A stretch of 64,000 nt of DNA. It comes from Ignavibacteriae bacterium HGW-Ignavibacteriae-1 (GTDB taxonomy: Bacteria; Bacteroidota; Ignavibacteria; Kapaibacteriales; UBA2268). Numbering within the stretch: position 1 is the first letter of the stretch; every line of letters starts with the position of its first letter. Location of the stretch: NCBI GenBank assembly GCA_002839825.1, contig PGYU01000007.1, positions 27,165-91,164 of the forward strand, written 5' to 3'. Both the position numbers and the translations under genes were made by a program. Of the stretch, positions 2,404 to 57,117 are shown in pieces. The notes beneath the pieces were generated by a model that saw only the letters and a program-made list of their open reading frames with translations, was not told the DNA's origin and made no database searches.

Positions 2404-3558
2404 TTAAAAGCTGATTATTCCTTGTGCACTCATATATACGATACCAATTTGAGAAGCATTATATACCCCAATACTAAATTGATTTGCAGCGGCTGTTCCA
2501 ATCCCTTGATTCATAGCGGCTTCCCCAATTAGTTGGTTTGATGCTGCACCTATACCCTGATTGTTGATAGCCATCCCCAAAGTCGTACCGACAGCATTCT
2601 GTTGCGAATTCGCCGCTGATTGGGGTATTCCTATACCAACTACTTCTTGATTGAAAGCCCCACAGAATTCCGAATTAAACGAAAACATGAATGCATAATT
2701 ACCAATATATTGATTGGTAGCGGATTGGGCACTTGATACTGAAAAAGATGATATAATATTATTTATTGCATTTACCGTATTCAAGCTTAGTCCGCTGTTT
2801 GAAATGCTCACAAAAGAAGTATAACCGGTATTTATCGCATTGATGATTTCTTGTGAATTCATGCCTTTGATATAATTAGGGTCATTCAGCACTTGCGATG
2901 CCGAATAGTACATTTTGCTCGAATCACCTGTGCTGACAGCGTAGATGAAATTATCAACTACTATTCTGTCTCGAAGCGCTTTCAGCCCGTCAAGCTCTTT
3001 TTTACGCAAATTATCATTTTGAATAGAATAGTCAATATTTGCAATAGTTGCCTCGAAAATTGAGTCACGAAGAAGGAATTGATTTGCAAAGTTGTAGAAT
3101 TGTTTCAGTTGTGATTCTACGTCTTTGTTCATTTCCTTAGTCTCGCCTGAATAAAATCCTGCTAATGTAACAATTGTGTTTTGGATGGTTGTCGTATTAT
3201 TTGTTATGAAATCTGAATAATCCCGTAATTCCGCAACTGAACTTGAAATTGTAGGTGATTGATTATATGTTTCAAGTACCGGAATCCACCATTCATTTAT
3301 CATCCCTTTCAAATATAAAGCAAAGTCGCCGAATTCTACTAAATCGTAAATTGTTTTCTTCACCATGTTTGTATCGTTCAATAAATCACTTCGTAAGACG
3401 ATGTTCTCGTCGCCAATTGTGCTTTCGCGGTATCTGTCAGCCTTGGTAAATGCTCCTGAAGCATCACTCTCGTCTACGGGGGACCAATATATTGAGAATA
3501 TAAGTATGGTAACAGCTACAAGAACGCCCAAAATAACTAATACGTATTTCTTATTCAT
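2404..3558 (-). CDS. Hypothetical N-terminally membrane-anchored protein with degenerate NQGIG/NQ.IG repeats at the C-terminus.
   Basis: 384-aa ORF with an ATG start. A hydrophobic helix spans residues 5-25. The C-terminal 100 aa are Gly/Asn/Gln-rich degenerate repeats ending in F. Confidence 0.5.
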   Translation of the reverse strand: MNKKYVLVILGVLVAVTILIFSIYWSPVDESDASGAFTKADRYRESTIGDENIVLRSDLLNDTNMVKKTIYDLVEFGDFALYLKGMINEWWIPVLETYNQSPTISSSVAELRDYSDFITNNTTTIQNTIVTLAGFYSGETKEMNKDVESQLKQFYNFANQFLLRDSIFEATIANIDYSIQNDNLRKKELDGLKALRDRIVVDNFIYAVSTGDSSKMYYSASQVLNDPNYIKGMNSQEIINAINTGYTSFVSISNSGLSLNTVNAINNIISSFSVSSAQSATNQYIGNYAFMFSFNSEFCGAFNQEVVGIGIPQSAANSQQNAVGTTLGMAINNQGIGAASNQLIGEAAMNQGIGTAAANQFSIGVYNASQIGIVYMSAQGIISF

Positions 3559-13710: not shown

Positions 13711-15105
13711 CTATCGTTTTCGGCTTAAACTTATCGGCATAAGCCCTGAGCTATAACTGAGCATTTGCCAAATATAGGCAAAGGCATCCGTCATGTCGTC
13801 ATGGGTTGAATTTGGGAATGCAGTCAATTCATGCTCGAAATCGCTCAACCATGCCGCATTGGATTTGAAGAATACTTTGCCCGATTCGACAAGTGCCGAC
13901 ATCGGTATTGCTCGGCTGAATTTGTCCTTGTCGGGTCTCAATTCCTTTACGGGCAAGCCCATTTCGCGGGCATTTTGAATCAATGCCGTTTGATATTGCA
14001 CAGACTCAATCCCAATCAAAGTCAGATTATGTGATTGATATATATTTTTGATTAAATCAATATGCTTATTGGGTGCTATTCGCTCTGCAATCACATCAAC
14101 AATAAAAATGTCTCGCTCGGGCGAAACGGCAAATATGATTACAGCCGTAAAATCCGAGCGTTCGTTTGTGCTAATTGCTAAATCTAATGTTGCATATTTA
14201 GTGCAATTTGTCTTGATGACCCTTTCCAAAGTATTATTTTTGATGAAGAAATTCGCGTCATCGGTGAAGTAATTGAATTTTGTGCGCTTGAAAATTCCGT
14301 CGCCCATCGGAGTTGGGTTTTGCATATAAAGCGACGAGAACCAATAAGCTCCGATTGATTCTTTGATTTTCAGCAATTGTTCTTTCGAGAATCGCTCTTC
14401 CCACAGTGCATCACCAATTTCCCTGCCAATAGCATCCTTTTCTTGAGCTATCGCCGGTAACGAAATCAATTTCCATTCATCAGGATTATTCATCAGCAAT
14501 CGTCCTGTCAAATCGTCCTCGTGCCACCTTGTCATCACAAGTATGATGCAGCCCGCGGGTTCAATCCTTGTGAAAACCGTAGAGCGAAACCAATCCCAGA
14601 GCAAATCTCGTTGGTGTTTGCTGTTGGCTTCGGCATCATTTTTAATCGGGTCGTCAATTATTAGCAAATCGGCTCCGCGTCCTGTGAGTGCACCGCCTGC
14701 ACCAACGCAAATCATTCCACCGTGAGAGTCTTTCAATCTGAAAATATTTGCCGCAAACGATGATTTATCGGTTGATATGCCAAATCTTTCGCCATAATTA
14801 TCAACCAAATCTCTCACTTTTCTGCCCCAACTTGTAGCGAATTGAGATTCATAGGTGGTGAGTATTACCGTTTTATCGGGATGATTGACCAAAAACCAAA
14901 AGGGCAAATATTTGGAGATTAACTCCGATTTGCCATGTCTCGGCGGCATATTCACAATCATTTTGCCATTTCCTGCGGCAATCATCTTTGCTAATTCGGC
15001 ATTCAAGAATTGAATATGCTTCGGCAAATCGAAATTGGGCTCGAGATTGTATGCCAACCATGCCGGACTAAGTTTGGGGTCGAATATTTTTGTGTAATCT
15101 ATCAT
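13711..15105 (-). CDS. Phage terminase large-subunit (TerL)-like ATPase/nuclease, standing alone.
   Basis: Walker A: MPPRHGKS. Walker B: LLIIDDP. Coupling motif: TRWHEDDL. The C-terminus has an RNaseH-like nuclease region. The track start at 15144 is TTG, and the first ATG (MIDYTKIF) is at 15105. Confidence 0.7.
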   Translation of the reverse strand: MIDYTKIFDPKLSPAWLAYNLEPNFDLPKHIQFLNAELAKMIAAGNGKMIVNMPPRHGKSELISKYLPFWFLVNHPDKTVILTTYESQFATSWGRKVRDLVDNYGERFGISTDKSSFAANIFRLKDSHGGMICVGAGGALTGRGADLLIIDDPIKNDAEANSKHQRDLLWDWFRSTVFTRIEPAGCIILVMTRWHEDDLTGRLLMNNPDEWKLISLPAIAQEKDAIGREIGDALWEERFSKEQLLKIKESIGAYWFSSLYMQNPTPMGDGIFKRTKFNYFTDDANFFIKNNTLERVIKTNCTKYATLDLAISTNERSDFTAVIIFAVSPERDIFIVDVIAERIAPNKHIDLIKNIYQSHNLTLIGIESVQYQTALIQNAREMGLPVKELRPDKDKFSRAIPMSALVESGKVFFKSNAAWLSDFEHELTAFPNSTHDDMTDAFAYIWQMLSYSSGLMPISLSRKR

Positions 15106-15293
15106 TAAAAGCACAAAAATCCGACGATAACAGCCCAAATACAAATCATTGATTTTAAATTCATTGCTAATAATTGTACTTCTCGATTCAGAATAATTTA
15201 GAATTTTGCCGTAAATTACGTATTTTTAAATTTGAATATTTCATTACTTGAATTTTATATATTCGTTATTGAATTTGAATTTATGAGCTTATA

Positions 15294-19635: not shown

Positions 19636-20025
19636 ATGAATATATCTAATAAATTCGCCAGTGTACCGAGTACAACTTTAAGCAACCGCTTACTTCGGAG
19701 GCTTGAGATGGTAAGGATTGCCCTTCCAATTGTCCTCTTGTTTACATTTTGGGTGAGCTTCTCAGGTATTGCAAACAGCCAAACATACAACCCAACTGAT
19801 GGCAATGTTATTGTATCATTTGATTTGCCTGAGAAAGGTATTTATACATTATCAGTTTATGATAATCTTGGAATAGAAATATTCAAACAAGAAATCAATG
19901 CTGGAGCAAATTTGAATATAGAATTTGAATTGAAATCTAATGCATATCCTGCAGGTATGTATAATGTTTTGATTTCGGGTTTTAGTGGCGAAATAATAAA
20001 TGGTAAATTTATTAAAATAAAATAG
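19636..20025 (+). CDS. Small secreted protein that is essentially a T9SS C-terminal sorting domain only.
   Basis: C-terminal ~80 aa read GIYTLSVYDNLGIEIFKQ...GMYNVLISGFSGEIINGKFIKIK (Por_Secre_tail-like). The start may be the internal ATG at 19708. Confidence 0.45.
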   Translation: MNISNKFASVPSTTLSNRLLRRLEMVRIALPIVLLFTFWVSFSGIANSQTYNPTDGNVIVSFDLPEKGIYTLSVYDNLGIEIFKQEINAGANLNIEFELKSNAYPAGMYNVLISGFSGEIINGKFIKIK

Positions 20026-20096: not shown

Positions 20097-21488
20097 GTGA
20101 AAACTTTTTTATACATAATATTTATTACCGCTATTTTAAATGTCAATTTATTTTCAAATAATATTACTTATAAAGTTGAACATTTTTATAATTTTAATAA
20201 AAATGTTTTAACTTTTGCAAAGGAAATATCTTGTTTAGATGAAAATAATTGTATTTTTTTAAAAACTGACAATAATGGTACAGGCCTTATGCTTGAAAAA
20301 ACCACTGATGCAGGCAATTCTTGGACATTAATTTATGCCGATACTTCTTTTAAATCATCCGATTCTGTTTATTATCCAAAATATTATGGAGTGGCGTGTA
20401 AATATTTTTCAGATGGAACAATTGTTATTCTGACCGATATGGGTAAAATAATACGTTCAGATAATTTTGGTGTATCATTTGTCGAAATACAAATAAATAA
20501 TTATTATTATCAATCTTTTATTATGTTAGATTCTGAAAATGCCCTAACAAATTCATCTGCAATGGAAAATTATCCTGATTCCGAATACCAAATATTGAAG
20601 TCAACTGATGGTTGTAATAATTGGGAAGATTTTCCTGTTCCAGATTCTATTTCTCAACGTTGGGATTTCGGATCTTTGATGTTGCAAAAAGATCATAGTG
20701 TTATAATTAGGTGCCATGTTAAATACGGACTTGAGCGTGATTCTACAAAGAATTACTTTTATCATACAGATTTCGAAGGTAGCTTTTGGAAATATTTTGA
20801 ATTGCCTAAATATATTAGAGATATTTATTTTTTTGATGAAAACGAAGGATTTGCTACAGGTAGAATTGTTCTCCCCGGTATTCAAGATGATACTGCGATA
20901 GTTGTTAAAACCTATGATGGAGGAATTACTTGGGAATTCAAATCTAAAACAACTTGGCCCACTGAATGGTTTTCTTCTCGATTAGTTCATAATGATTCAA
21001 TTATATTTGTAGCTGGTTCTTTATTCGGATTTCATCAGTCAACAGATAAAGGCGAAAGCTGGTTCCAACCGGAATATCAAATTCCTACGGAAGTATTTGA
21101 TATACCCTATGTATCAAGTATTGAAGCCTATTTTGACAGCGGAATTGCATATTTTTTGACTGGTTTTAATACACAATGCCTCAAAGGCACAAGAGTCTTG
21201 TCTTCCGTCGCTTCGCCATCTGTGAAGCCGAAACGGATATACCCTAATCCCGTTACTTACGGCTCGGACTTCATAGCCGAATATGAAATTGCGACTTCCG
21301 GGCATCTGAAAATGTATCTGTCCGATTTGTCAGGTCGCGAAGTTTGCCCTCTTTATAGCGATTTCGCCGAATCAGGCTCTTACTCGACATCTTTCCGTTT
21401 GCCGGAGAATATCAGTTCGGGCAGCTATTGGCTCGTCTCCGAACAAAACGGCTTCAAACATGTCCAACTACTGAATGTGGTGAAATAG
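20097..21488 (+). CDS. BNR/Asp-box repeat beta-propeller protein (Ycf48/sortilin-like) with a T9SS C-terminal domain.
   Basis: Repeated TDAGNSW, SDNFGVSF, STDGCNNW, YDGGITW and STDKGESW. The C-terminus is RIYPNPVTYG...SGSYWLVSEQNGFKHVQLLNVVK. Confidence 0.6.
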   Translation: MKTFLYIIFITAILNVNLFSNNITYKVEHFYNFNKNVLTFAKEISCLDENNCIFLKTDNNGTGLMLEKTTDAGNSWTLIYADTSFKSSDSVYYPKYYGVACKYFSDGTIVILTDMGKIIRSDNFGVSFVEIQINNYYYQSFIMLDSENALTNSSAMENYPDSEYQILKSTDGCNNWEDFPVPDSISQRWDFGSLMLQKDHSVIIRCHVKYGLERDSTKNYFYHTDFEGSFWKYFELPKYIRDIYFFDENEGFATGRIVLPGIQDDTAIVVKTYDGGITWEFKSKTTWPTEWFSSRLVHNDSIIFVAGSLFGFHQSTDKGESWFQPEYQIPTEVFDIPYVSSIEAYFDSGIAYFLTGFNTQCLKGTRVLSSVASPSVKPKRIYPNPVTYGSDFIAEYEIATSGHLKMYLSDLSGREVCPLYSDFAESGSYSTSFRLPENISSGSYWLVSEQNGFKHVQLLNVVK

Positions 21489-24814: not shown

Positions 24815-24952
24815 ACTATTCTCCAAAATTATTCAATATTGCTAAATCAAAAATGCAATATAAGGGATTATCGCAAAACGAGAGAAATATATAAAAGAAA
24901 GGAGAGCATTTGCCCTCCTTTTTGTGGTTATTATCATGAATTATTAGCAATA

Positions 24953-26554
24953 TTACTCAATTACAATTCTTTGCAAAGTCTGCTCTCCGTAATGCGTTTG
25001 GGCTACGAGCAAATACATTCCGGGCGTTAATTTATTCAAATTGAAATTTTCGCGAAACTCGCCTTTGCGAATTAGAGTTTCCGGCGATAGCGTCATTAAT
25101 AATTTCCCTGTAAGGTCATGAATCGAAAGTTTCACTTTTCTATCCTCTTTCAGTTGGAAATTGACAGAAACCGGACCGTTTGTAGGATTTGGGTACACTA
25201 ACATGTTTTCGATTGCTCCACTACACGAGCGCCAAACGTCCATTATAGTTTCCGAGCCTGTTTCGGGAGCCGCTTTGCAAATATCTTCGCTGCTGTTAAT
25301 CGCTGCAATCTCGGCTTGGAGACGCGATTTGATGTTTTCCGGCACAACTTTAAGAAGTTCATCCGTGGGTTCAAACCAGAAGATTAAGTCTGCGCCGCCA
25401 TCCGGAACATCGAATCGGACAGGAATTAATTTGTTGACAGTCAATTCTGTCATCATTTTGATGCGTTTATTAATATGAGGAAAATGCTCTATGGGAATCG
25501 TAATTTTCTCATTTAATTTAGTATTGGGCCACATAAATAGGATTTGGTCTATTTTGGTAGTATCTAAGGGATCAAATTCGCTATCTATACGTTTAATTTT
25601 GATTTTTTGTTCTACTTTTCGGTCATTTTCAGAATCATCAAAATCAATTTGAATTCTCTTAGATTTGAAACGTAATGAATCTACATCACTATTATTCATG
25701 GAATTATTCAATAAGAAAGATAATTTATTCCTATCCACTTTGAATTTACCAGAATTATCTGTATCACTAGATTGTGATAAGAATGAATCAATTTGTGCAG
25801 GAGACAACTGATTTAAAATATCTATATCTAAAGTTGTATTTTCTTCAATTGTTTCTGTATATAGTACTTGATTCGGTTTGTTCTCGCTTCCTTCGGGATT
25901 ATTTTTATTAGTCATAAACGCTATTTTTACATTTCCATTGGCAGAAGTAATAAGCTTAGGAACTAATTTATGGTCAGTATCAGAAGACTCCGAATTAGAA
26001 AGAAACTGTGTTTTCATATTCGGAGCTATCGAAACTTTCATATTACCACTTGTAACTTCATAATTATTCGTTTTCGAGTTGAATTTAATATTATATAAAT
26101 CTAAATAATCATTCGGCAAAGTAATGGTATTTATTCCGCTTATTTTGTCTGATGAGTTGGGCACATCGACTTTATCATCTACATTGTAAGTATTCATAGC
26201 GACATCATCTGGCTTAAAATTGCGTTTATTGATGTCTTTATCGCCATCGTCTGGTAGTATTTCTTTGACATTGGGGGTGGATTTTGCTGTTGATATTTCA
26301 ACTGAAGTTTGCTTATTTTCGGGCACTTGTTTATCAGAATCAATTACATTAAATAGTACCAATCCTGATATTACAAGAGCCGCCATTGAACTTAAAATAG
26401 TCATTTTATTTGCTCCGTAATTAAAAATACCTGTACTCACCGGATTTACGGTACTTGCGCTAATGAGTTCGCGAACCTCATTATCCTTCAAAACCGGCTC
26501 CAGATTTCGAGCTTTATCAAAAATATTATCAATATTTGTATAATTATTATTCAT
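24953..26554 (-). CDS. Anti-sigma-like single-pass membrane protein with a C-terminal T9SS sorting domain (paralogue of 40572-42200).
   Basis: A ~50-aa N-terminal cytoplasmic segment precedes the TM helix KMTILSSMAALVISGLVLFNV. A large extracytoplasmic region follows. The C-terminus is VYPNPTNGPVSVNF...GMYLLVAQTHYGEQTLQRIVIE. It starts 2 nt after the sigma gene. Confidence 0.5.
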   Translation of the reverse strand: MNNNYTNIDNIFDKARNLEPVLKDNEVRELISASTVNPVSTGIFNYGANKMTILSSMAALVISGLVLFNVIDSDKQVPENKQTSVEISTAKSTPNVKEILPDDGDKDINKRNFKPDDVAMNTYNVDDKVDVPNSSDKISGINTITLPNDYLDLYNIKFNSKTNNYEVTSGNMKVSIAPNMKTQFLSNSESSDTDHKLVPKLITSANGNVKIAFMTNKNNPEGSENKPNQVLYTETIEENTTLDIDILNQLSPAQIDSFLSQSSDTDNSGKFKVDRNKLSFLLNNSMNNSDVDSLRFKSKRIQIDFDDSENDRKVEQKIKIKRIDSEFDPLDTTKIDQILFMWPNTKLNEKITIPIEHFPHINKRIKMMTELTVNKLIPVRFDVPDGGADLIFWFEPTDELLKVVPENIKSRLQAEIAAINSSEDICKAAPETGSETIMDVWRSCSGAIENMLVYPNPTNGPVSVNFQLKEDRKVKLSIHDLTGKLLMTLSPETLIRKGEFRENFNLNKLTPGMYLLVAQTHYGEQTLQRIVIE

Positions 26555-26555
26555 A

Positions 26556-27164
26556 TTATATACCTATTTTCATTAATTTATCATTATTTTTTGAAAATTC
26601 ACTTCGTTCTGCAGAGTAATTATTGTTCATTTTATGTGTAATTTTATCATTCATCAATTCGCTTAATTTCTCCCGACCTCTTTTCAATCTGGATTTTACT
26701 CCCGAAATTGTTCCGCCTTGAATCTCTTTGATTTCTTCGATTGAAAATCCCGAAATTTCGTACAAAATGATTGCTTCTTTCATTTTTTCAGGTAATTTGT
26801 CCAAAGTGTCGTAAAGCACTTTTATATCGTGAGAAATATCGGGCATCGGGTCGTGAGCTATCAAATTATCCAAAGCCATATCATCTAATTCCTCGAAATT
26901 CTTCATTTTTGACTTACGCTTACGATGCAATCTGACCGCTATGGTAAAGATATAACTGCTGAAAGCCTCTTTGTTCTTAATCTTGTCAAAGTTTTCGTAC
27001 GCAGCCAACACGGTATCGCTAACCAAGTCACGCGCATTCTCGGTATTGCGAGTGATTGCTCTCGCAAAACCCGAGAGTTTGAATTTCACTCGGTCATAAT
27101 AAATCATGAACTCATTTTGTTTACTATCTTTCAAATCAATTTCCAAATTTTGTTCTCTACTCAT
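26556..27164 (-). CDS. ECF-type RNA polymerase sigma-70 family factor.
   Basis: Region 2 (DLVSDTVLAAYENF) and region 4 (EAIILYEISGFSIEEIKEIQGGTISGVKSRLKRGREKL) are present. An alternative start MIYYDRV at 27107 is possible. Confidence 0.8.
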   Translation of the reverse strand: MSREQNLEIDLKDSKQNEFMIYYDRVKFKLSGFARAITRNTENARDLVSDTVLAAYENFDKIKNKEAFSSYIFTIAVRLHRKRKSKMKNFEELDDMALDNLIAHDPMPDISHDIKVLYDTLDKLPEKMKEAIILYEISGFSIEEIKEIQGGTISGVKSRLKRGREKLSELMNDKITHKMNNNYSAERSEFSKNNDKLMKIGI

Positions 27165-27198
27165 AATATAAGTGCTACAAATTCTAAAAAAGTTTCAT
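27163..27198 (-). promoter_or_regulatory. Conserved ~35-bp motif found upstream of ECF sigma genes (copy 1). Further copies lie at 27348-27383 and 42712-42743.
   Basis: Minus-strand reads: ATGAAACTTTTTTAGAATTTGTAGCACTTATATTAT, ATGAAACTTTTTACGGAATTGCACCACTTATATTAT and ATGCACCCTTTTTTTAATATTGAAGCACTTACTCAC. Confidence 0.35.
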
Positions 27199-27410
27199 CT
27201 GATAAGTAAAATACTCAAAATATTTTTACTAAGAGCTATTCCAATGAATTAGAATCCTGTTACCATTCATAAAATGATTAGACTCATTTCTTCAAAACAA
27301 ATTTTTCAAATTTTCTTTCAATATAAAATATTTTTCGCTGCACTCTAATAATATAAGTGGTGCAATTCCGTAAAAAGTTTCATGAAAGTTTATAATTTAA
27401 TAAAGTTAAT

Positions 27411-29568: not shown

Positions 29569-32500
29569 ATGAAACAATGTACTTTCCTTGCAGCAATACT
29601 TTTTTGTATTACGAGCTCTTTATATTCTCAAATTCCCCAAACCATTAGCTGGCAGGGAATTTTGCAGGATGCTGATTCAAAAAATCTTTCAGGCACCTTT
29701 AGCCTGACTGTCAAGTTATACGATGTCGCTTCAGGCGGCACCGCTATTTGGAACGAAACACACAGCAGCGTAGTTATCGCTGACGGACTTGTCAATCTTA
29801 CTCTTGGAAGCGTTACACCTTTTAGTATTAATTTCGGCGATGAATACTGGCTCGAAATCACCGTAGGAACCGGCACTCCGCTTCCAAGGATTAAACTCAG
29901 TTCTGTGCCGTATGCAATGCATTCAAAGACGGCTGAATCTGCAAATGAAACTGACCCGACATGGAGTGGAAATGCCAATACAACGGGTACTATAAGTAGA
30001 AGCGGTAAAGTTGGTATTGGAACATCATCCCCAACGGCTTTACTGCATATTTTTGATTCAGAAACTACTGCGGGAGATGTTCTATTTGTGGGGAATATTG
30101 ATTGGACAACGCCTAGGAATCCTCCCACTTCCGGTGCAGGTACACGCATGATGTGGTATCCGGATAAAGCGGCAATTAGAGCAGGCTATATTTCGGGAAA
30201 TCACTGGGATATGAGCAATATTGGGATGTCATCAGTTGCTATGGGTTACAACACTATTGCAAGCGATCACGGAGCCACGGCTTTTGGTTCAGGAACTGAA
30301 GCTTCTGGATATGGTTCTACTGCTTTTGGAATTTTGACTACAGCACCGGGGAACGTCGCAACTGCTTTCGGAAATAATACGTCTTCAACAGGAATTGCTA
30401 CCACCGCAACGGGACACAGCACTACAGCATCGGGTGATTATTCATTTAGCATGGGATATGGAACCCAAGCCTTGGGTCAATTTTCATTATCAATGGGAAA
30501 AGAAACTTCGGCTCTATCAGGCTATGAAGTAGTTTTAGGGTCATATAATACTGAATACGTGCCCGAAAATGCATTCGGTTGGAGTGAAAATGACCGCTTA
30601 TTTGTAATAGGAAACGGCGTGGGTGATTTTGCTCCAAGCAATGCAATGACCGTGTTAAAAAACGGCAAGGTGGGAATTGGAACCGACAACCCACAATATC
30701 CGCTTCACGTGAATACTCCGGGAGTATTTACCGGAATACAGATGACCACTGATGCAGCGGGTACCACCATGAGTGATGGCTTGATTATTGGCATGCAGTA
30801 CCAGTCAAATGAACCTTCCAATCGTTATGCAACAGTACTGAACAAGGAAAATTCACCATTGCTTTTAGGAACAAATAATAATTATCAGGGCGACTTGACC
30901 ATCCTACCAGGTGGGAATATTGGGATTGGCATTAATCCGCCCACTACGCGGCTCGACATCAACGGTCAAGTTCGTATTCGTGGTGGCAGTCCGGGCGCAG
31001 GAAAAGTGTTGACAAGTAGTGCTAATGGCACTGCTACTTGGCAAACTAAAAGTTTAGAATTGCCATTTTCTTCAACAATATCAAGCAGTGGAACGCTTTT
31101 CTATATTAAGAATAATGAATATTTAGGTTCAGGAATTTATGGCTACGGTGTATTTGGTGTAACCGGCGAAGCTCATGATGGCGGTATTGGAGTAGGTGGA
31201 TACGGTGGATTAGGAGTAGAAGGTGTGTCAAAATCTGCAGGAGGGGTTGGAGTTTATGGACGAGTTCAAATTTCAGGAACAGCAATCAAGGGTAAGGTAG
31301 ATAATCCCAATGATTTTTCAGGATACTTTTTGGGTGGAAAATTTTATACTTCAAGTCAGGTTGGAATAGGCACAGAAAGTCCCTCGGCTCTTCTGCATGT
31401 TCATGGAACTGGTTATAGTGGAGGTAATGTTGTTTTTACGGGCGAATATTTAGATTCGTATATTAGCCAAGCACCCGTTGAGGGCTCGGGTACGCGCATG
31501 ATGTGGTACCCAAATAAGGGTTCATTCCGAGCGGGACGTGTAACAAGCACGCAATGGAATAAAAGTAATATGGGAGATTATTCCACAGCATTTGGATACG
31601 ACACTAAGGCATCCGGATATGGCTCTATTGCTTTAGGATACTCATCTACTGCATCTAACACTGCTGCATCGGCAATCGGATTTAATACTATTGCCTCCGG
31701 TAATGTTTCCACTGCAATTGGTTATTCCGCCACAGCTTCAGGATATGCTTCCACTGCAATTGGTTATTACGCCACAGCTTCAGGGTTTGCTTCCACTGGA
31801 ATGGGGTATAACACTACCGCGAAATCAGGATATGAAACTGTAGTCGGTAGTTGGAATACGGATTACACTCCTGTTTCAACATCAGGTTGGAATTCTAGTG
31901 ATAGACTGTTTGTAATTGGAAATGGCACTGCAAGTACATCACGTAGTAACGCCATGACAGTATTAAAGAATGGGAAAATAGGCATAGGAACAGCATCACC
32001 TAGCGAACTATTGCATATAAATAATTCTACCGGAACTGCTAAATTGCGAGTTTCATCAGCGTCCACAGCCCTATCGGAGCTTACTTTTTATAGCGGGAGC
32101 ACTTATCTTGGCGCAATAGGTAGTGACAATACAAGTAATTATTTATTTATTTATCATGGTGGAAATATTATTTTCAAAAATGGCAGAATTGGTATTCAAA
32201 CTGAAACAAATCCCACATTTGCCCTACATTTACCAAATAGTACAAGTGATGGTACCGGCAGAGGACGCGCAAATGCATGGACAACTTACAGCGATAGAAG
32301 GATTAAAACAGCCACTGAAGAAATTCAATATGGACTTAGCGAAATAATGCAACTTCAACCGGTAAAATATTTCCAACATAATTCAATATTTGACGATGGT
32401 AAATTAGTAATTTCCGATATTGGGGCAAGCGATATTGGTTTTATCGCACAAGATATTTTCAAAATAATTCCTGAAATTGTCAGCGTTCCCGATAATGAAA

Positions 32501-32637
32501 ACGCTGAACTTTGGGGGTTGAATTATGAAAAGCTCACTCCAATACTTGTAAAAGCTATTCAAGAGCAACAAATGAAAATAGACGAACTCGAGCGGAAACT
32601 CGAACTACTTTTGCAAAAATTTTCTGAAAATAAATAA
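29569..32637 (+). CDS. Tail-fibre-domain surface protein with a shared N-terminal domain, Gly/Ser/Thr-rich repeats and a C-terminal S74-type intramolecular chaperone domain (cassette 2, gene A).
   Basis: The signal peptide and N-terminal domain are paralogous to 4638-6554. Repeats include YGSTAFG and GYSATASGYASTAIGY. The C-terminus DIGFIAQDIFKIIPEIVS...LNYEKLTPILVKAIQEQQMKIDELE matches the chaperone-of-endosialidase (peptidase S74) signature. Confidence 0.75.
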   Translation: MKQCTFLAAILFCITSSLYSQIPQTISWQGILQDADSKNLSGTFSLTVKLYDVASGGTAIWNETHSSVVIADGLVNLTLGSVTPFSINFGDEYWLEITVGTGTPLPRIKLSSVPYAMHSKTAESANETDPTWSGNANTTGTISRSGKVGIGTSSPTALLHIFDSETTAGDVLFVGNIDWTTPRNPPTSGAGTRMMWYPDKAAIRAGYISGNHWDMSNIGMSSVAMGYNTIASDHGATAFGSGTEASGYGSTAFGILTTAPGNVATAFGNNTSSTGIATTATGHSTTASGDYSFSMGYGTQALGQFSLSMGKETSALSGYEVVLGSYNTEYVPENAFGWSENDRLFVIGNGVGDFAPSNAMTVLKNGKVGIGTDNPQYPLHVNTPGVFTGIQMTTDAAGTTMSDGLIIGMQYQSNEPSNRYATVLNKENSPLLLGTNNNYQGDLTILPGGNIGIGINPPTTRLDINGQVRIRGGSPGAGKVLTSSANGTATWQTKSLELPFSSTISSSGTLFYIKNNEYLGSGIYGYGVFGVTGEAHDGGIGVGGYGGLGVEGVSKSAGGVGVYGRVQISGTAIKGKVDNPNDFSGYFLGGKFYTSSQVGIGTESPSALLHVHGTGYSGGNVVFTGEYLDSYISQAPVEGSGTRMMWYPNKGSFRAGRVTSTQWNKSNMGDYSTAFGYDTKASGYGSIALGYSSTASNTAASAIGFNTIASGNVSTAIGYSATASGYASTAIGYYATASGFASTGMGYNTTAKSGYETVVGSWNTDYTPVSTSGWNSSDRLFVIGNGTASTSRSNAMTVLKNGKIGIGTASPSELLHINNSTGTAKLRVSSASTALSELTFYSGSTYLGAIGSDNTSNYLFIYHGGNIIFKNGRIGIQTETNPTFALHLPNSTSDGTGRGRANAWTTYSDRRIKTATEEIQYGLSEIMQLQPVKYFQHNSIFDDGKLVISDIGASDIGFIAQDIFKIIPEIVSVPDNENAELWGLNYEKLTPILVKAIQEQQMKIDELERKLELLLQKFSENK

Positions 32638-38387: not shown

Positions 38388-38424
38388 AAAGCCGCTCCAT
38401 TTTTGGGGCGGCTTTTTGTTTTAT
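38388..38424. terminator. Bidirectional intrinsic terminator between convergent genes.
   Basis: AAAGCCGCTCC-atttttg-GGGCGGCTTTTTGTTTT. Confidence 0.6.
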
Positions 38425-38432
38425 TTATACAA

Positions 38433-39620
38433 TTATTCTTTTATGGCAAATTTTATTGCTTGTATGTCATTATTTGAAGTAACATTGAGAATATAAATAC
38501 CAATTGGTAGATTCAATGTACTTAAATCTAAATTATAATCATTATTCATAACATCTCTGTTATAAATTTGTTCACCCATTAAGTTGAATATATTTATAGA
38601 AAAGGGTTGAATTGAATTGACTTCTATAAGATTATTGATATAATCAACATTTATTTTTGAATTATTATCTACTTCGGCATTTTTCACACTAACCGTTGTT
38701 AAACCTCTATATAATTTACCGCCTTCAAAAGCAGCGTACAAGCTATTGTCAACATAATCCATTCCCTGCAAATGAGCATTAATAGGCGTATCTATGAATT
38801 CCCACGTCACTCCTCCATCGGAAGTGAAAAGTACAGAATTTTTATCAAAGCCAGCCCATCCAATTTGGCTATTTAACATCTTAAAGTTGCCGACTATAAA
38901 AATTGTAGTTTGAATTGTAGTTAACCAACTTTCACCACCATCAGTAGTTTTGATAATGAAACCAAATCCGGCAACCCATCCTGTAGATTTATCAATGAAT
39001 TGAACAGCTAAATTCCTATAAATTGCAGGAGTCTTGTGCGATTTCCAACTTTCGCCACCATTCGTCGTACTCAGTACTGCACCCATATCACCGACTACCC
39101 AGCCATTCATTTCATCAATAAAATATATTGACCATAAATGCAGATTGGGAATTTCATGCTGAAGTATGAACCAATTCTCGCCACCATCAATAGTTTTAAG
39201 CACAATACCGTTTTCTCCTGTTACCCAGCCAATATTTTTATCAAGAAAAAAAACAGAATTAAACTGCAGTTTAGAATTGCTTTCAAGCTTTCTCACTTCT
39301 CCATTGGAATTTACTTTAGATATCGCTCCATCAGTACCAACTATCCAACCGGTACCATCGGAGAATAAAAATATATCCACAAAAATATTACTTGTATCGG
39401 TACTGTGATCAATCCATGTGACGCCGGCATCCGTAGTTCTGAAAATGGTCCCGCTGTATCCCGCCATCCAACCATTATTACTATTATAAAATTTAATGCA
39501 ATTCATATCAGCAGCGCTTTCTATTTTAATTTCCTGCCAATCAATTTCTACCGAAAAAGTTGGGATAGTGCTTAAAAATAGCATAAAGGAAAGCAAAGTT
39601 GTCTTAAATTTCAGTTTCAT
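38433..39620 (-). CDS. BNR/Ycf48-like beta-propeller protein with a T9SS C-terminal domain.
   Basis: Repeats TTDAGVTW, TIDGGENW, TTNGGESW, TTDGGESW and TSDGGVTW. The C-terminus reads ...LNLPIGIYILNVTSNNDIQAIKFAIKE. The ATG at 39620 is preceded by AAAGGTGA, whereas the track start at 39659 would overlap the upstream gene. Confidence 0.6.
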   Translation of the reverse strand: MKLKFKTTLLSFMLFLSTIPTFSVEIDWQEIKIESAADMNCIKFYNSNNGWMAGYSGTIFRTTDAGVTWIDHSTDTSNIFVDIFLFSDGTGWIVGTDGAISKVNSNGEVRKLESNSKLQFNSVFFLDKNIGWVTGENGIVLKTIDGGENWFILQHEIPNLHLWSIYFIDEMNGWVVGDMGAVLSTTNGGESWKSHKTPAIYRNLAVQFIDKSTGWVAGFGFIIKTTDGGESWLTTIQTTIFIVGNFKMLNSQIGWAGFDKNSVLFTSDGGVTWEFIDTPINAHLQGMDYVDNSLYAAFEGGKLYRGLTTVSVKNAEVDNNSKINVDYINNLIEVNSIQPFSINIFNLMGEQIYNRDVMNNDYNLDLSTLNLPIGIYILNVTSNNDIQAIKFAIKE

Positions 39621-39631
39621 TATTTCACCTT

Positions 39632-40561
39632 TTATTTTAAATTTGAAATCTCTTTCCATTTAATAACACCGTGATAATTCTCTGCAACAAATAGTTTATT
39701 TTGATATAGAAACATTGCCCCCGGATATTCGCATTCTGAGCGGTCAAATTCTGTCCAATTCGCTCCGAAGTCTTGCGAATTTAAAATAATTCGTTCATTG
39801 TTTAATTTGCAATAAAGCCATATATTATTCTTGTCGCTCACAAATCCATTTATTGAATAATTAGTTTGCGTATTTATCCAATTCCAAGTTAAACAGTTAT
39901 CAGTGGAATTACAAAGTAAGCCATCGAACCCTAATGCCCATATCTTATTTCCATCATAATGAAGGTTCCAAATTTGTTCTCCTTCAAATATATTAATTAA
40001 TTTCCATGTTTCGCCTTCATCGTTTGATTCGTAAATAGCAGAAGCATTGTCATTATATGCTGATAAATATATTTTATCATGTACTTTTGCAATCGAAGTT
40101 AAGTTGGGATGTTCGATTATTGAAACTGCCTTCCATGTTTCTCCTTTATCTGTACTTCGCAATATGTAGGAATTTTGTGATAATATCAATAAGGTGTTTG
40201 GGTTGACATATGTGAATTTCGCTAAATTAAAAACAGGGTCAATACTCAAATCTTCAAACTCATTACCGGGTTTAGAAAAATATACAATTGTTCCGTAATA
40301 GCCAGTAATTAAAATTCCTCCATCCGGTGTAAAATCTATGTTCATCAAAGGGTAATGTGTTCCGACGTATTGTCTCTTCCAACTCAATCCGGCGTCTGTT
40401 GAATATAAATAATTATTCCTGGGTCCTAATACAATGCCTATTCCATTATCATTAAATTTGATTTTCGTTAATGGCTCGTTATTTAAATTTGCAACTGTAT
40501 TCCAATCTTCCGCTTCTGCACTAAGATGCATTATTAGCATAAATAAAATTAATATTTTCAT
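39632..40561 (-). CDS. BNR-repeat beta-propeller protein (secreted).
   Basis: Signal peptide. Repeats STDAGLSW, STDKGETW, SNDEGETW, DNCLTW and FGANW. Confidence 0.5.
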   Translation of the reverse strand: MKILILFMLIMHLSAEAEDWNTVANLNNEPLTKIKFNDNGIGIVLGPRNNYLYSTDAGLSWKRQYVGTHYPLMNIDFTPDGGILITGYYGTIVYFSKPGNEFEDLSIDPVFNLAKFTYVNPNTLLILSQNSYILRSTDKGETWKAVSIIEHPNLTSIAKVHDKIYLSAYNDNASAIYESNDEGETWKLINIFEGEQIWNLHYDGNKIWALGFDGLLCNSTDNCLTWNWINTQTNYSINGFVSDKNNIWLYCKLNNERIILNSQDFGANWTEFDRSECEYPGAMFLYQNKLFVAENYHGVIKWKEISNLK

Positions 40562-40571
40562 CGTTATTTCC

Positions 40572-42200
40572 TTAATTGATTATTATTCGTTGCGAAACAA
40601 ATTCATTCTTATCGGATTTGAGACCAATTAAATATGTGCCTGTAGTCAAATTAATCAGATTTAGTTTTATATGATGTTCTCCGGCATTCAAATTATTGAT
40701 ATTTGATAGTCTGCCAATGAATGCGCCCTGAATATCATATATATTTATCTCAATATTTCGCACTTCAGTTGTTTTGAATTTCATTGTAATAGAACCGTTG
40801 TATACCGGATTAGGATATAAATTCTGTATTTCGATTGCACCATTGGCAAATCGGCAATAATCGTAAAATGACTCTTCTTCAATGAAATTGCACGCTTCTT
40901 CTAAGCTTAATGTGCCGGACTCTATTGATGAAATAATTTCAATTTCATTTTTCAAAGCTTTTTTGTAGCGTTCCGGTAGTGATTCGATAAATTCATCTGT
41001 AGGATAATACCACAAAACTAATTTTTCAATCAAATCATTTTTATTAAATTTGATTTCGATTGGCAAAAGCTTCGAGTAATCCATGTTTTCAATATATTTC
41101 TGACTTATTGGCGAATCATGCGAAATAAATACATATTTATGGTCAGTATTATTGTATTTAAAAGCGGCAATTATCGGAACAACTTTGCTGTAGGAATCTT
41201 TTGCCCAATTACCGAATTGTGCAATATTATTTACAAAACCTTGTAAAGCCCGCGTCTTCCAATCTTCATAAGCGACTGCATAATCCATTCCAATGTATTC
41301 ATGAACCGAGCTATGCAATATTACATTTTTCAAATTGTAATATATTTTTCCGTCAATAGTGTCTGAGGTGGTTGCCGTTCTATATGCAGTAGCATGAATT
41401 GTGGCTTTAACCAATATAGATTCATCAAGTTTATCCTTCAAATCTATCTCATGGCGGGTTTTTATGAGTAGTGTATCGCCATTTACAGGGTAATTTCGTT
41501 CAACTAATTCATAATTCGCCGGAAGATTGCTATAAGATTTATTGTTCCTCATTGGAATTGGATGCAACTGATGAAAGTATTCGATAGGATATGATACAGT
41601 ATTTTCATTCAATTGAATATTTAATTTTGCTAATTCATTTTTTGTCAGATTTAAAGTTATTAGCCCCGGTATTGGGCTTCCTTCAGCATCGGTTTGAATA
41701 GAGCCTGGTTCGAGGAAATCTATAGATGTACTTTTGTTTCCAATTGTAAATACATTTTGCGGACGTTGAAGTGCTTCGGTTCTAAATGGATTTTTAATGT
41801 AAATAGGATAGTTTGTCAATTCCTCTTGAGATATGATTTGAGTTTTTCCTTCAATATGTTTGGATTTGGTACTACTTTCGGTTAATACTGCAATTTCTGA
41901 ATTGTCAATCAAATCATGTTCTGTGTGTTCAATTTCTGACGTATGGATACTGGATTTTGAACTAATTTCAATAATTTCAAGAATATTTGAAATCTCAAAG
42001 TATTGATTCATACTTAGAAAACTAAACACTACTAAAAAAGTCAACATTGCGATACTCCCCAACAGTTCGACATTCAGTGGTGAATTATGAGCAAATTTAT
42101 TCACTGCTAAAATTGAATTCAATTCCTTATCATCTAAAGGCTCTTTAAACTGATTCATTTCCTTAGCAGCAGCAAAATATTTATTTAACTCTGTATTCAT
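40572..42200 (-). CDS. Anti-sigma-like single-pass membrane protein with a T9SS C-terminal domain (paralogue of 24953-26554).
   Basis: A 45-aa N-terminal segment precedes TM helix LLGSIAMLTFLVVFSFL. The central domain shares WYYPTDEFIESLPERYK with the paralogue's WFEPTDELLKVVPENIK. The C-terminus is LYPNPVYNGSITMKF...GTYLIGLKSDKNEFVSQRIIIN. It overlaps the sigma gene by 20 nt. Confidence 0.5.
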   Translation of the reverse strand: MNTELNKYFAAAKEMNQFKEPLDDKELNSILAVNKFAHNSPLNVELLGSIAMLTFLVVFSFLSMNQYFEISNILEIIEISSKSSIHTSEIEHTEHDLIDNSEIAVLTESSTKSKHIEGKTQIISQEELTNYPIYIKNPFRTEALQRPQNVFTIGNKSTSIDFLEPGSIQTDAEGSPIPGLITLNLTKNELAKLNIQLNENTVSYPIEYFHQLHPIPMRNNKSYSNLPANYELVERNYPVNGDTLLIKTRHEIDLKDKLDESILVKATIHATAYRTATTSDTIDGKIYYNLKNVILHSSVHEYIGMDYAVAYEDWKTRALQGFVNNIAQFGNWAKDSYSKVVPIIAAFKYNNTDHKYVFISHDSPISQKYIENMDYSKLLPIEIKFNKNDLIEKLVLWYYPTDEFIESLPERYKKALKNEIEIISSIESGTLSLEEACNFIEEESFYDYCRFANGAIEIQNLYPNPVYNGSITMKFKTTEVRNIEINIYDIQGAFIGRLSNINNLNAGEHHIKLNLINLTTGTYLIGLKSDKNEFVSQRIIIN

Positions 42201-42609
42201 CTTTCACTCCAATTAATTCAGCCAATTGCTTTTTCGCTCTGTATAATCTTGATTTAATAGTTTCTTCGCTTACATTCATAATTATACTCGCTTCCTTTCG
42301 TGAAAAGCCCTCAATTTCTGATAAAATCAGCGTTTCTCTGTAATCCGGCTTCAACTTATTCATTGCTTGTCGCAAAAATTGAATATCAATCATTACATCG
42401 GGATGCAATGAGTTGTCCATTAAATTGTCAAAATCAAAATCCTTTTCAAAGTTGGATTGAAATTTGATTGATTTGTAAAACACTCTACTTGCGATAGTAA
42501 ATACATAGCTTAAGAAAGCATCTTCACTCTTGAGTTTGGCAAATCCTAAGAAAGCCTGATAAAGAGTTTCGCTCAGTAATTCCTTTGCATCGTCGGTATT
42601 TCTAGTCAT
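42181..42609 (-). CDS. ECF-type RNA polymerase sigma-70 family factor (short).
   Basis: Region 2 (LLSETLYQAFLGFAKL) and region 4 (ETLILSEIEGFSRKEASIIMNVSEETIKSRLYRAKKQL) are present. Confidence 0.7.
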   Translation of the reverse strand: MTRNTDDAKELLSETLYQAFLGFAKLKSEDAFLSYVFTIASRVFYKSIKFQSNFEKDFDFDNLMDNSLHPDVMIDIQFLRQAMNKLKPDYRETLILSEIEGFSRKEASIIMNVSEETIKSRLYRAKKQLAELIGVKDEYRVK

Positions 42610-42768
42610 GAAGAGACAATATCTCCACAGACTATCTTTGTTCCGACGATAACATTCGGTAAAATGTGCTTTTAAATCATTCAGTTTTCTATCCTTTTTT
42701 ATATTCTGTGAGTAAGTGCTTCAATATTAAAAAAAGGGTGCATTAATGAACAAATTTGCTCTCCACTC

Positions 42769-56790: not shown

Positions 56791-57117
56791 TTTTTCGCCC
56801 CGTCAGTGTTACAATTGTGAAATAAAGAGCCTGTTTTACAGTATTTCAACTGATTGAAAAAGCAAATTCTCGTCAGTAATAACAAAGACAGGACAAAATC
56901 CTGTCCAGTCATTACTCTTCTACTTATTGCAATAACTTATTTACTCGAACGTGCTTTTTTTTATGAAAAATGAATGTATCATGATTATATCAAATCATGC
57001 AACTAACTCTTGTTGCGGCTTTAAGTATTCCGGATTATCAGACATGTATAGAGGAGAAATCCACTAAGGTTTAACTTATTTTAGTTCATTTTGAGGTATG
57101 GTAGGATGTATGCTTGT

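What the first reader, a model, noticed from the sequence alone, without database searches (positions are those of the whole stretch)
24953..27164. Two paralogous ECF-sigma / anti-sigma-like pairs in which the membrane partner ends in a T9SS sorting domain
Locus 1 is 26556-27164 with 24953-26554, separated by 2 nt. Locus 2 is 42181-42609 with 40572-42200, overlapping by 20 nt. Each partner has a short cytoplasmic N-terminus, one TM helix and a large external domain ending in a Por-type CTD. A T9SS CTD on a protein with anti-sigma topology is paradoxical. Either the N-terminal helix is a cleaved signal and the protein is secreted, or CTD removal by the T9SS is itself the signal that releases the sigma factor, which would form a secretion-coupled regulatory switch.
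Basis: partly seen in the sequence, partly recalled or inferred. Interest (0 to 1): 0.55.

Follow-up and report, generated by a model that had tools for sequence, protein, structure and literature searches.

The report
Sigma-factor partner carrying a T9SS tail
Two gene pairs in this Ignavibacteria/Kapabacteria genome each join an ECF sigma factor to an inner-membrane protein built like an anti-sigma factor but ending in a type IX secretion tag. The pairs belong to a large undescribed family that may link gene control to the outer-membrane secretion machine.

Summary
Both loci encode an ECF sigma factor followed, on the same strand and tightly coupled, by a ~540-aa protein. That protein has a ~50-aa N-terminus, one ~21-residue hydrophobic helix, a long ectodomain and a type-A T9SS C-terminal sorting domain that passes the curated cut-offs.

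There are two corrections:
- Sigma 2 is not a 142-aa stump. It most likely starts at a conserved CTG at 42684, giving 167 aa.
- The gap in locus 1 is 1 nt, not 2.

The pair defines a family of about 690 50%-identity clusters, with one architecture in nearly all full-length members. In 25 of 25 loci examined, an ECF sigma of the same subfamily lies directly upstream, and nothing else is conserved.

The cleavable-signal reading is disfavoured:
- The hydrophobic segment starts near residue 51 and is of transmembrane length.
- It obeys the positive-inside rule.
- It is preceded by a conserved helical hairpin that is confidently modelled.

The best reading is an autoregulated sigma/anti-sigma module whose anti-sigma ectodomain is a T9SS client. 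[quoted passage not shown]

Sigma binding and T9SS coupling are inferred, not shown. No paper describing this was found. I rate it a new variant of a known kind, of moderate to high interest.

The parts
27354..27381 (-). Distal ECF-type promoter-like motif (GAAACTTTTT-N14-CACTTA) upstream of sigma 1
   Evidence: The pattern GAAACTTT-N14-18-CTTA has only 2 hits in the window. Both lie upstream of sigma 1, against 0.12 expected by chance. The same motif occurs once in 9 of the 20 loci then held (8 distinct, since L003 and L013 are one contig), at coordinates that lie upstream of the sigma ORF in each.
27169..27196 (-). Proximal copy of the same promoter-like motif. It ends 5 nt before the listed ATG of sigma 1.
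26556..27164 (-). Sigma 1: ECF (group IV) sigma-70 factor, 202 aa, with a ~30-aa tail after region 4
   Evidence: Matches Pfam Sigma70_r2 and Sigma70_r4_2. TIGR02937 scores above its cut-off. PDB relatives include SigH, SigW, RpoE and CnrH.
24953..26554 (-). Partner 1: 533-aa putative membrane anti-sigma factor with a T9SS sorting domain
26456..26533 (-). Partner 1 residues 8-33: conserved cytoplasmic helical hairpin (family motif LD.yF..AR...P..S.deAR.L). This is the proposed sigma-binding element.
   Evidence: Family consensus. Helices 8-17 and 24-33 are modelled at pLDDT ~87-90. No match to any Pfam or PDB anti-sigma domain.
26342..26404 (-). Partner 1 residues ~51-71: single N-in transmembrane helix (signal anchor)
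   Evidence: Hydropathy peak at residues 53-71. Family statistics on length and charge asymmetry.
25910..26143 (-). Partner 1 residues 138-215: small conserved helix/beta ectodomain module (I.G.N.I.L...EL..LGI ... P..ITD..G)
   Evidence: pLDDT 86-95. Conserved columns G140, L146/L151, P199 and G207. No informative fold match.
25199..25441 (-). Partner 1 residues 372-452: family-specific pre-CTD module (KLIP...W..PT.E...LP ... C...D.WRsCSGAIEN) with two conserved cysteines
   Evidence: Invariant W393 and P405; near-invariant C426 and D439. pLDDT 81-95. This is the region shared by the two window paralogues.
24956..25198 (-). Partner 1 residues 453-533: type-A T9SS C-terminal sorting domain at the extreme C-terminus
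   Evidence: PF18962 at E 1e-10 and TIGR04183 at 33 bits against a cut-off of 23. Ig-like fold matching, among others, the RemA CTD in the T9SS translocon complex 8gl6_D (TM-score 0.57 on the target).
24898..24921 (-). Terminator-like hairpin (10-bp stem plus T run) about 30 nt after the partner 1 stop. It closes a two-gene operon.
42711..42742 (-). Locus 2 promoter-like motif TGCACCCTTTTT-N11-GCACTTACT. Its -10-like part is like that of locus 1, and its -35-like part differs.
   Evidence: Conserved between the window and the diverged orthologous locus L021.
42181..42684 (-). Sigma 2: ECF sigma factor. Most likely 167 aa from CTG 42684, not 142 aa from ATG 42609.
40572..42200 (-). Partner 2: 542-aa paralogue of partner 1, with its helix at ~46-66 and CTD at 461-541. 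It overlaps sigma 2 by 20 nt, and GGAG lies upstream of its ATG.
38433..40561 (-). Two BNR/Ycf48-like beta-propeller genes (309 aa; 408 aa with its own CTD), apparently co-transcribed with locus 2
   Evidence: A 10-nt gap to partner 2 and a 28-nt overlap between the two genes. No terminator-like site appears before 38388-38415. A BNR gene also follows the partner in L021 and L029.

Best explanation
Each locus is a self-contained, probably autoregulated ECF sigma / membrane anti-sigma module.

Proposed layout of the partner:
- It inserts into the inner membrane as an N-in single-pass protein.
- Its conserved ~35-aa N-terminal helical hairpin sits in the cytoplasm and sequesters the sigma factor encoded immediately upstream.
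- Its ~460-aa ectodomain consists of a disordered tether, a small beta module, a family-specific cysteine-containing module and, at the very end, a type-A T9SS sorting domain.

Proposed mechanism:
- The sorting domain delivers the far end of the protein to the T9SS translocon in the outer membrane.
- The protein then either bridges both membranes, as Dma1 does, or has its ectodomain clipped off and exported.
- In either case the stability of the anti-sigma factor, and hence the release of sigma by regulated intramembrane proteolysis, would depend on what happens to the CTD-bearing ectodomain at the T9SS.

Shown here: the architecture, the topology signals, the strict sigma pairing, a conserved ECF-type promoter and a CTD above the curated cut-offs.

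Inferred: sigma binding, engagement with the T9SS and proteolytic release.
For: 1. Pairing.
- In 25 of 25 loci examined, an ECF sigma 41-54% identical to sigma 1 lies directly upstream on the same strand.
- In most loci the two genes overlap by 4-20 nt or are separated by fewer than 20 nt (my comparison of the sigma ends with the N-terminal domain positions).
- Sigma and partner are the only ORFs conserved across all 22 non-redundant loci compared, the two window loci included.

2. Co-divergence. Pairwise identity of the sigmas and of the partner N-termini correlates at r = 0.71, with 0 of 2000 permutations reaching that value. Paralogues group by type rather than by genome.

3. Topology.
- One hydrophobic segment starts at a median residue of 51, with an uncharged length of 23 and an apolar run of 19.
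- There are 3.3 K/R against 0.3 D/E before it and 1.3 against 2.4 after it.

4. N-terminus. The motif LD.yF..AR...P..S.deAR.L is conserved across members of about 25% identity. It is modelled as two helices at pLDDT ~87-90.

5. Precedent. Forty N-terminal residues of Dma1 suffice to pull down its ECF sigma Das1, and Dma1 has the same order of helix, disordered linker and outer-membrane-targeted C-terminus (PMC10927553).

6. CTD.
- It scores above the Pfam and TIGR04183 cut-offs and lies at the extreme C-terminus.
- It is the best-conserved part of the family.
- The profile match in family members ends about 80 residues before the C-terminus.
- Six ORFs with such tails lie in this 64-kb window.

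7. Autoregulation. The ECF-type motif GAAACTTT-N14-18-CTTA is found in the window only upstream of sigma 1 (2 hits against 0.12 expected). It also occurs once, upstream of sigma, in 9 of the 20 loci then held (8 distinct).
Against: - No direct test of sigma binding was possible.
- The N-terminal profile matches no known anti-sigma domain in Pfam, NCBIfam or the PDB.
- No T9SS machinery gene lies in the window. The presence of a T9SS in this organism is therefore inferred only from the abundance of CTD-bearing ORFs.
- To my knowledge, known T9SS cargo carries a cleaved Sec signal, and I know of no inner-membrane-tethered T9SS client.
- The co-divergence result also follows simply from the two genes being inherited together.
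Confidence: 0.6

Rival explanations
1. The partner is a true anti-sigma factor, but its C-terminal domain is only an Ig-like periplasmic sensor or binding domain that resembles a T9SS CTD. It never engages the secretion system, and the module senses some periplasmic cue in the ordinary way.
For: - The fold is a generic Ig-like beta sandwich. The best PDB matches are an alpha-2-macroglobulin domain and other Ig-like domains.
- An inner-membrane tether is hard to reconcile with export through the translocon.
- No T9SS gene is linked to the loci.
Against: - The domain passes the curated TIGR04183 and PF18962 cut-offs in both paralogues.
- It sits at the extreme C-terminus, as type-A sorting signals do.
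- It is kept in essentially every full-length family member.
- It is the most conserved part of the protein.
- The family was found only in lineages rich in CTD proteins: Kapabacteria, Ignavibacteria and the FCB group.
Confidence: 0.2
2. The partner is an ordinary secreted T9SS cargo protein. Its first ~70 residues are a long, cleaved, 'extended' signal peptide. The sigma factor merely drives its expression and is not held by it.
For: - To my knowledge, T9SS cargo normally uses a cleaved Sec signal.
- Extended signal peptides with conserved N-terminal extensions are known in autotransporters (from my own knowledge).
- A Met just before the helix (M51) is nearly invariant and could in principle be an internal start.
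Against: - The hydrophobic run is of transmembrane length (median 19 apolar and 23 uncharged residues). No conserved small-x-small site follows it; an Asn does.
- Starting at M51 would leave no positively charged n-region.
- The 50 residues upstream are conserved as protein across ~25%-identical members and fold confidently.
- Normal exported proteins in the window have short signals at their very N-terminus.
- Universal, often overlapping pairing with a sigma gene is the hallmark of anti-sigma factors rather than of cargo.
Confidence: 0.12
3. The adjacency is incidental or an annotation artefact, and locus 2 is a decaying pseudogene pair because its sigma lacks a start codon.
For: the ORF listing finds no ATG, GTG or TTG that would give a full-length sigma 2.
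Against: - The upstream in-frame codons of sigma 2 are conserved as protein, with synonymous changes, in a diverged orthologue. That orthologue also keeps the CTG and the AGGA.
- The extension completes region 2.
- The pairing holds in 25 of 25 loci.
Confidence: 0.02

Closest known systems
[quoted passage not shown] 2024, PMC10927553)
   Same: - Found in the Bacteroidota lineage.
- Encoded directly next to an ECF sigma.
- A very short N-terminal cytoplasmic region (40 aa suffice in Dma1), one inner-membrane helix and a long disordered periplasmic linker.
- A C-terminal domain whose destination is the outer membrane.
- A proposed proteolytic release of sigma.
   Different: - The C-terminal module here is a T9SS type-A sorting domain, preceded by a family-specific module, and not an eight-stranded OMP_b-brl_2 barrel.
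- Whether the sigma belongs to ECF21 was not tested.
- Dma1 has experimental support, and this family has none.
PorA / PorXY / SigP signalling of the Porphyromonas gingivalis T9SS (Yukitake et al. 2020, PMC7712824)
   Same: A protein with a T9SS CTD feeds information about the secretion system into an ECF sigma factor.
   Different: - There the CTD protein (PorA) is a separate surface protein.
- According to the paper, the signal runs through a two-component system (PorY/PorX) that activates SigP, and no anti-sigma factor of SigP is described.
- Here the CTD and the putative sigma-binding region are parts of one polypeptide.
FlgM / sigma-28 (FliA) secretion checkpoint (from my own knowledge)
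   Same: An anti-sigma factor carries a secretion signal, so the state of a secretion machine sets sigma activity.
   Different: - FlgM is soluble and is exported whole from the cytoplasm by the flagellar type III apparatus.
- Here the sigma-binding part would stay in the cytoplasm behind a membrane helix, so release needs proteolysis.
FecR/FecA-type cell-surface signalling and class II short anti-sigma domains (CnrY, NepR) (from my own knowledge)
   Same: - A single-pass anti-sigma factor that couples an outer-membrane event to an ECF sigma.
- A short two-helix sigma-binding region, as in CnrY and NepR.
   Different: - There is no FecR domain, no TonB-dependent transducer partner, and no detectable sequence relation to CnrY, NepR or zinc-binding anti-sigma domains.
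- In FecR systems the outer-membrane component is a separate protein.

Membership tests
ECF (group IV) sigma-70 factors | Regions 2 and 4 are present, regions 1.1 and 3 are absent, and the size is about 160-200 aa | tested here: met
   - Sigma 1: Sigma70_r2 35 bits, Sigma70_r4_2 43 bits, TIGR02937 64 bits against a cut-off of 43.
- Sigma 2: TIGR02937 54 bits for the listed 142-aa ORF. From CTG 42684, region 2 scores 32 bits and region 4_2 scores 59 bits.
T9SS type-A cargo (TIGR04183 / PF18962 C-terminal sorting domain) | A sorting domain above the curated cut-off at the extreme C-terminus | tested here: met
   - Partner 1: PF18962 42 bits (cut-off 27) and TIGR04183 33 bits (cut-off 23), at residues 453-532 of 533.
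- Partner 2: 49.5 and 35 bits, at residues 461-542 of 542.
T9SS type-A cargo (TIGR04183 / PF18962 C-terminal sorting domain) | An N-terminal cleavable Sec signal peptide | tested here: not met
   - The hydrophobic segment starts near residue 51 and is of transmembrane length, with positive-inside charge asymmetry.
- A conserved folded hairpin precedes it.
- No dedicated predictor such as SignalP was available, so this rests on simple statistics.
T9SS type-A cargo (TIGR04183 / PF18962 C-terminal sorting domain) | Export that depends on the T9SS, and removal of the CTD by PorU | not testable with these tools
   This needs experiments. T9SS core genes were not found in the window, and the rest of the genome could not be read.
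Known anti-sigma domain families (zinc-binding zf-HC2/RsrA type, RskA, FecR, NepR, CnrY) | Sequence match to the sigma-binding domain | tested here: not met
   - The whole partners gave no Pfam or NCBIfam hit other than CTD-type models at E <= 0.001. Partner 2 had three marginal exodeoxyribonuclease VII matches far below cut-off.
- 56 N-termini scanned singly gave no recurring family.
- The N-terminal profile against the PDB gave nothing below E 0.2.
Anti-sigma factors in the functional sense | Encoded next to, and co-transcribed with, the cognate ECF sigma; single-pass N-in topology with a cytoplasmic N-terminus | tested here: met
   - Pairing in 25 of 25 loci, with overlapping or near-abutting genes in most.
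- A terminator-like site lies only after the partner in locus 1.
- Charge asymmetry supports the N-in orientation.
Anti-sigma factors in the functional sense | Physical binding and inhibition of the sigma factor | not testable with these tools
[quoted passage not shown] | A C-terminal eight-stranded outer-membrane beta-barrel (OMP_b-brl_2) | tested here: not met
   There is no OMP_b-brl hit, and the C-terminus is an Ig-like CTD. These proteins are therefore not members, although the layout is analogous.
[quoted passage not shown] | Cognate sigma of group ECF21 | not tested
   No ECF-group models were available. The nearest named model, NF058625 (PG0214/GFO_1088 family), scores 68 bits against a cut-off of 130.

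The most novel reading that the evidence does not exclude
The family is a secretion-coupled transcriptional switch. The anti-sigma factor's own ectodomain is a T9SS substrate, so engagement, pulling or CTD cleavage at the translocon triggers site-1 and site-2 proteolysis and frees the ECF sigma. The cell would thereby read out T9SS capacity directly through one polypeptide that reaches from the cytoplasm to the outer-membrane secretion pore.
Probability: 0.3. Interest if true: 0.8.

Novelty: new variant of a known kind. Interest (0 to 1): 0.62.

Why it matters

A second, large family that reaches the outer membrane through a different device, a T9SS sorting tag, would suggest that trans-envelope anti-sigma factors are a broader feature of the Bacteroidota lineage. 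It would also provide a compact two-gene system with a recognisable promoter for testing three questions:
- Can the T9SS handle a membrane-tethered client?
- Is secretion activity fed back to transcription?
- How does a 35-residue hairpin hold an ECF sigma?

The family is annotated only as 'hypothetical' or 'T9SS type A sorting domain-containing protein', so its regulatory role is currently invisible in databases.

Tried and rejected
No interface prediction was obtained.

2. A search of the 5.8-billion-protein database with the N-terminal profile, to look for the same N-terminus on other C-terminal architectures such as Dma-type barrels, found only 2 short fragments among 484 candidates. The word prefilter made this uninformative.

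3. A search with the full family profile returned only close relatives.

4. The N-terminal profile against the PDB gave only chance-level matches. A scan of 56 N-termini against Pfam gave the same.

5. Foldseek on both models returned only generic Ig-like hits that explain the CTD. Nothing emerged for the 138-215 module or the pre-CTD module.

6. The supplementary files of the ECF classification paper and of the Dma paper are not held. I could therefore neither assign an ECF group nor compare N-termini with Dma1 and Reo.

7. I considered and rejected the idea that sigma 2 is truncated or a pseudogene.

8. I considered and rejected M51 as the real start of a normal signal peptide. It would leave no charged n-region, and the upstream 50 residues are conserved as protein.

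9. I looked for conserved neighbours that might reveal the regulon. None was found except BNR/Ycf48-like genes after locus-2-type pairs.
Full report
**What is there**

The window matches a metagenome-assembled genome named Ignavibacteriae bacterium HGW-Ignavibacteriae-1. Partner 1 is 100% identical to its protein CVV22_06880, and the nearest relatives are labelled Candidatus Kapabacteria.

- Sigma 1 (26556-27164) and sigma 2 (42181-42609 as listed) match Pfam sigma-70 regions 2 and 4_2. They also match the ECF superfamily model TIGR02937 above its cut-off, and they are 40% identical to each other.
- Partner 1 (24953-26554, 533 aa) and partner 2 (40572-42200, 542 aa) give no curated domain match other than the T9SS type-A sorting domain (and equivalog models matching only through it) at their extreme C-termini. 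Both PF18962 and TIGR04183 score above their cut-offs.
- The partners are 31% identical over the last ~170 residues.

**Corrections to the observation**

One nucleotide, not two, separates the sigma 1 stop from the partner 1 start.

Sigma 2 is not a truncated 142-aa protein.
- No ATG, GTG or TTG lies upstream in frame, but the frame stays open for 37 more codons.
- In a diverged orthologous locus (L021, 73% identical sigma) these codons are conserved as protein, with third-position changes.
- Both loci keep a CTG 7-8 nt after an AGGA.
- Starting at CTG 42684 gives 167 aa. It lifts the Pfam region 2 match from 19 bits (below cut-off, profile positions 16-68) to 32 bits (positions 2-68 of 71).

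**A family, not a curiosity**

A profile of the partners without their CTD, searched against 1.84 billion cluster representatives, finds 692 proteins at E <= 1e-3 and 91 at E <= 1e-30. Most match from residue 1 to about 80 residues before their C-terminus.

Inspection of the 157 sequences held shows one architecture:
- an N-terminal motif, roughly LD.yF..AR...P..S.deAR.L;
- a basic patch (KG.K.M) and one hydrophobic helix;
- a variable, low-complexity stretch;
- a small conserved module (I.G.N.I.L...EL..LGI ... P..ITD..G);
- a second variable stretch;
- a family-specific module (KLIP...W..PT.E...LP ... C ... D.WRsCSGAIEN) that abuts the CTD;
- the CTD, ending in GEQAVQRIIvE.

The few members without a CTD look like contig-end fragments.

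**Pairing with sigma is universal**

I examined loci for close and distant members, using a scan of species-representative genomes and contig look-ups.
- In 25 of 25 loci, an ECF sigma 41-54% identical to sigma 1 lies immediately upstream on the same strand.
- From the sigma ends and the positions of the N-terminal domain, I estimate that the genes overlap by 4-20 nt or lie fewer than 20 nt apart in most loci.
- An all-against-all comparison of flanking ORFs finds only these two genes conserved across all 22 non-redundant loci compared, which include the two window loci.
- The one exception is a BNR/Ycf48-like beta-propeller gene that follows locus-2-type pairs (window, L021, L029).
- Sigma and partner N-terminus diverge together (r = 0.71; 0 of 2000 permutations reach this). 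Paralogues from one genome group with their own type from other genomes. The pair therefore duplicated as a unit.

**Operon signals**

A motif of ECF-promoter type, GAAACTTT-N14-18-CTTA, occurs only twice in the 64-kb window, against 0.12 expected by chance. Both copies lie upstream of sigma 1, at 27169-27196 and 27354-27381. It also occurs exactly once in 9 of the 20 loci then held (8 distinct, since L003 and L013 are one contig), at coordinates upstream of the sigma ORF.

Locus 2 has a variant, TGCACCCTTTTT-N11-GCACTTACT (42742-42711). It is conserved in L021 and has a different -35-like half. This would fit two orthogonal, self-activating sigmas.

A strong terminator-like hairpin follows partner 1 (24921-24898). 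In locus 2 no such site appears until after the two BNR genes.

**Signal peptide or membrane anchor?**

For 133 family members:
- The hydrophobic segment starts at a median residue of 51 (range 41-64).
- The uncharged stretch has a median of 23 residues, and the apolar run a median of 19.
- The 12 residues before it hold 3.3 K/R and 0.3 D/E on average. The 12 after it hold 1.3 K/R and 2.4 D/E.

This is the signature of an N-in signal anchor. Other exported proteins in the same window carry ordinary short signals within their first ~25 residues. No small-x-small site is conserved after the helix; an Asn is.

The 50 residues before the helix are conserved as protein down to ~25% identity. With a 122-sequence alignment, AlphaFold models residues 8-17 and 24-33 as two helices at pLDDT ~87-90. 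Residues 38-124 stay below 50, while 138-215 and 372-533 are confident.

I conclude that the N-terminus is a cytoplasmic domain, not a cleaved leader. This rests on simple statistics, because no dedicated predictor was available.

**What it most likely is**

The evidence is:
- strict co-location and translational coupling with an ECF sigma;
- N-in single-pass topology;
- a short conserved cytoplasmic hairpin;
- an ECF-type promoter in front of the pair.

Together these are the standard signature of a sigma/anti-sigma module. A two-helix, ~35-residue sigma-binding element is plausible. Forty N-terminal residues of Dma1 suffice to pull down Das1 (PMC10927553), and CnrY and NepR are similarly short (my own knowledge).

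The N-terminal motif matches no known anti-sigma domain. It would therefore be a new sequence class of such an element.

**What the CTD implies**

The tag is above the curated cut-offs, terminal, the best-conserved part of the family and nearly universal in it. Six ORFs in this window alone carry such tails. Its predicted fold matches, among many Ig-like domains, the RemA CTD bound in the T9SS translocon (8gl6_D).

I therefore think it is a functional sorting signal rather than a look-alike, with moderate confidence.

The layout of cytoplasmic hairpin, inner-membrane helix, disordered tether and outer-membrane-directed C-terminus parallels Dma1. Dma1 was shown to exist as one polypeptide with its C-terminal barrel in the outer membrane and to be processed into fragments. 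The difference is the outer-membrane device: a T9SS tag plus a private pre-CTD module, in place of a barrel.

Two mechanistic versions remain open:
- a standing trans-envelope tether whose disturbance triggers proteolysis;
- a substrate-like ectodomain whose engagement or clipping at the translocon sets the lifetime of the anti-sigma factor.

It has conceptual relatives in FlgM export and in PorA-PorXY-SigP signalling (PMC7712824). It is untested here.

**Limits**

- No T9SS core gene lies in the window, and I could not read the rest of the genome.
- No regulon beyond the operons themselves was found.
- The ECF group of the sigmas was not assigned.
- The fold searches gave nothing for the two private ectodomain modules.

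**Novelty**

Full-text searches combining anti-sigma with T9SS, sorting domain, Por_Secre_tail or dual membrane-spanning found no description of an anti-sigma factor with a T9SS sorting domain. Database names for the family are 'hypothetical protein' or 'T9SS type A sorting domain-containing protein'.

I rate it a new variant of a known kind: a membrane anti-sigma factor of the trans-envelope sort, with a new sigma-binding motif and a new outer-membrane targeting device.

**Verdict**

- Confidence that this is a sigma/anti-sigma module with a T9SS-directed ectodomain: about 0.6.
- Probability of a true secretion-coupled switch: about 0.3.
- Interest: 0.62.

Noticed in passing
window 42609-42723 (minus strand): Sigma 2 appears to use a non-canonical CTG start at 42684, with AGGA at 42695-42692. 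Gene callers, including those behind the public records, call it 142 aa from ATG 42609. The same short call is made in the orthologous loci L021-L026.
   Followed up: yes
window 27169-27196 and 27354-27381 (minus strand): Two tandem copies of the ECF-type promoter-like motif lie 185 nt apart upstream of sigma 1. The proximal one ends 5 nt before the listed ATG. This implies either a leaderless transcript or a downstream start codon (for example TTG at codon 7 or ATG at codon 20).
   Followed up: partly
window 38433-40561 (minus strand); L021 4641-5561; L029 2893-3819: BNR/Ycf48-like beta-propeller genes follow locus-2-type pairs in three different organisms. In the window there are two, and the second carries its own signal peptide and T9SS CTD. 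They are candidate regulon members of sigma 2.
   Followed up: partly
window 19636-20025, 20097-21488, 57091-59454, 38433-39659: Four further ORFs end in CTD-like domains, which makes six in 64 kb. T9SS cargo is evidently abundant in this genome, although no T9SS machinery gene lies in the window.
   Followed up: partly
window 26556-26650 (minus strand): Sigma 1 and most family sigmas carry a variable 20-40-aa tail after region 4. Sigma 2 lacks it. Its role is unknown.
   Followed up: no
window 13711-15144 (minus strand): A 477-aa ORF matches the phage terminase large subunit (TIGR01630 at 77 bits, above cut-off). It may be a prophage remnant or a mobile element.
   Followed up: no
window 43970-46801, 51681-53111, 53078-55270 (plus strand): A cluster of large multihaem c-type cytochromes. 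One of 943 aa is fused to a cytochrome b561-like membrane domain. Another joins a thiosulfate-reductase-type cytochrome b to an NrfH-like domain. This suggests extracellular or periplasmic electron transfer.
   Followed up: no
window 29569-32637 (plus strand): A 1022-aa ORF gives weak matches to trimeric autotransporter adhesin repeats (Ata, YadA, EmaA), all far below the family cut-offs.
   Followed up: no
L011 1139-3546: In one family locus the partner gene is split into two overlapping ORFs (1139-2668 and 2665-3546). This is probably a frameshift or an assembly error.
   Followed up: no
L004, L007, L009, L011, L013, L017, L020 record titles: Several genome records that carry the family are titled Desulfobulbaceae or Hyphomicrobiales. 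Their sigma/partner genes nevertheless sit among Kapabacteria and Ignavibacteria relatives, and L004 has a sigma 92% identical to sigma 1. The labels look like taxonomic mis-assignments of metagenome bins.
   Followed up: no
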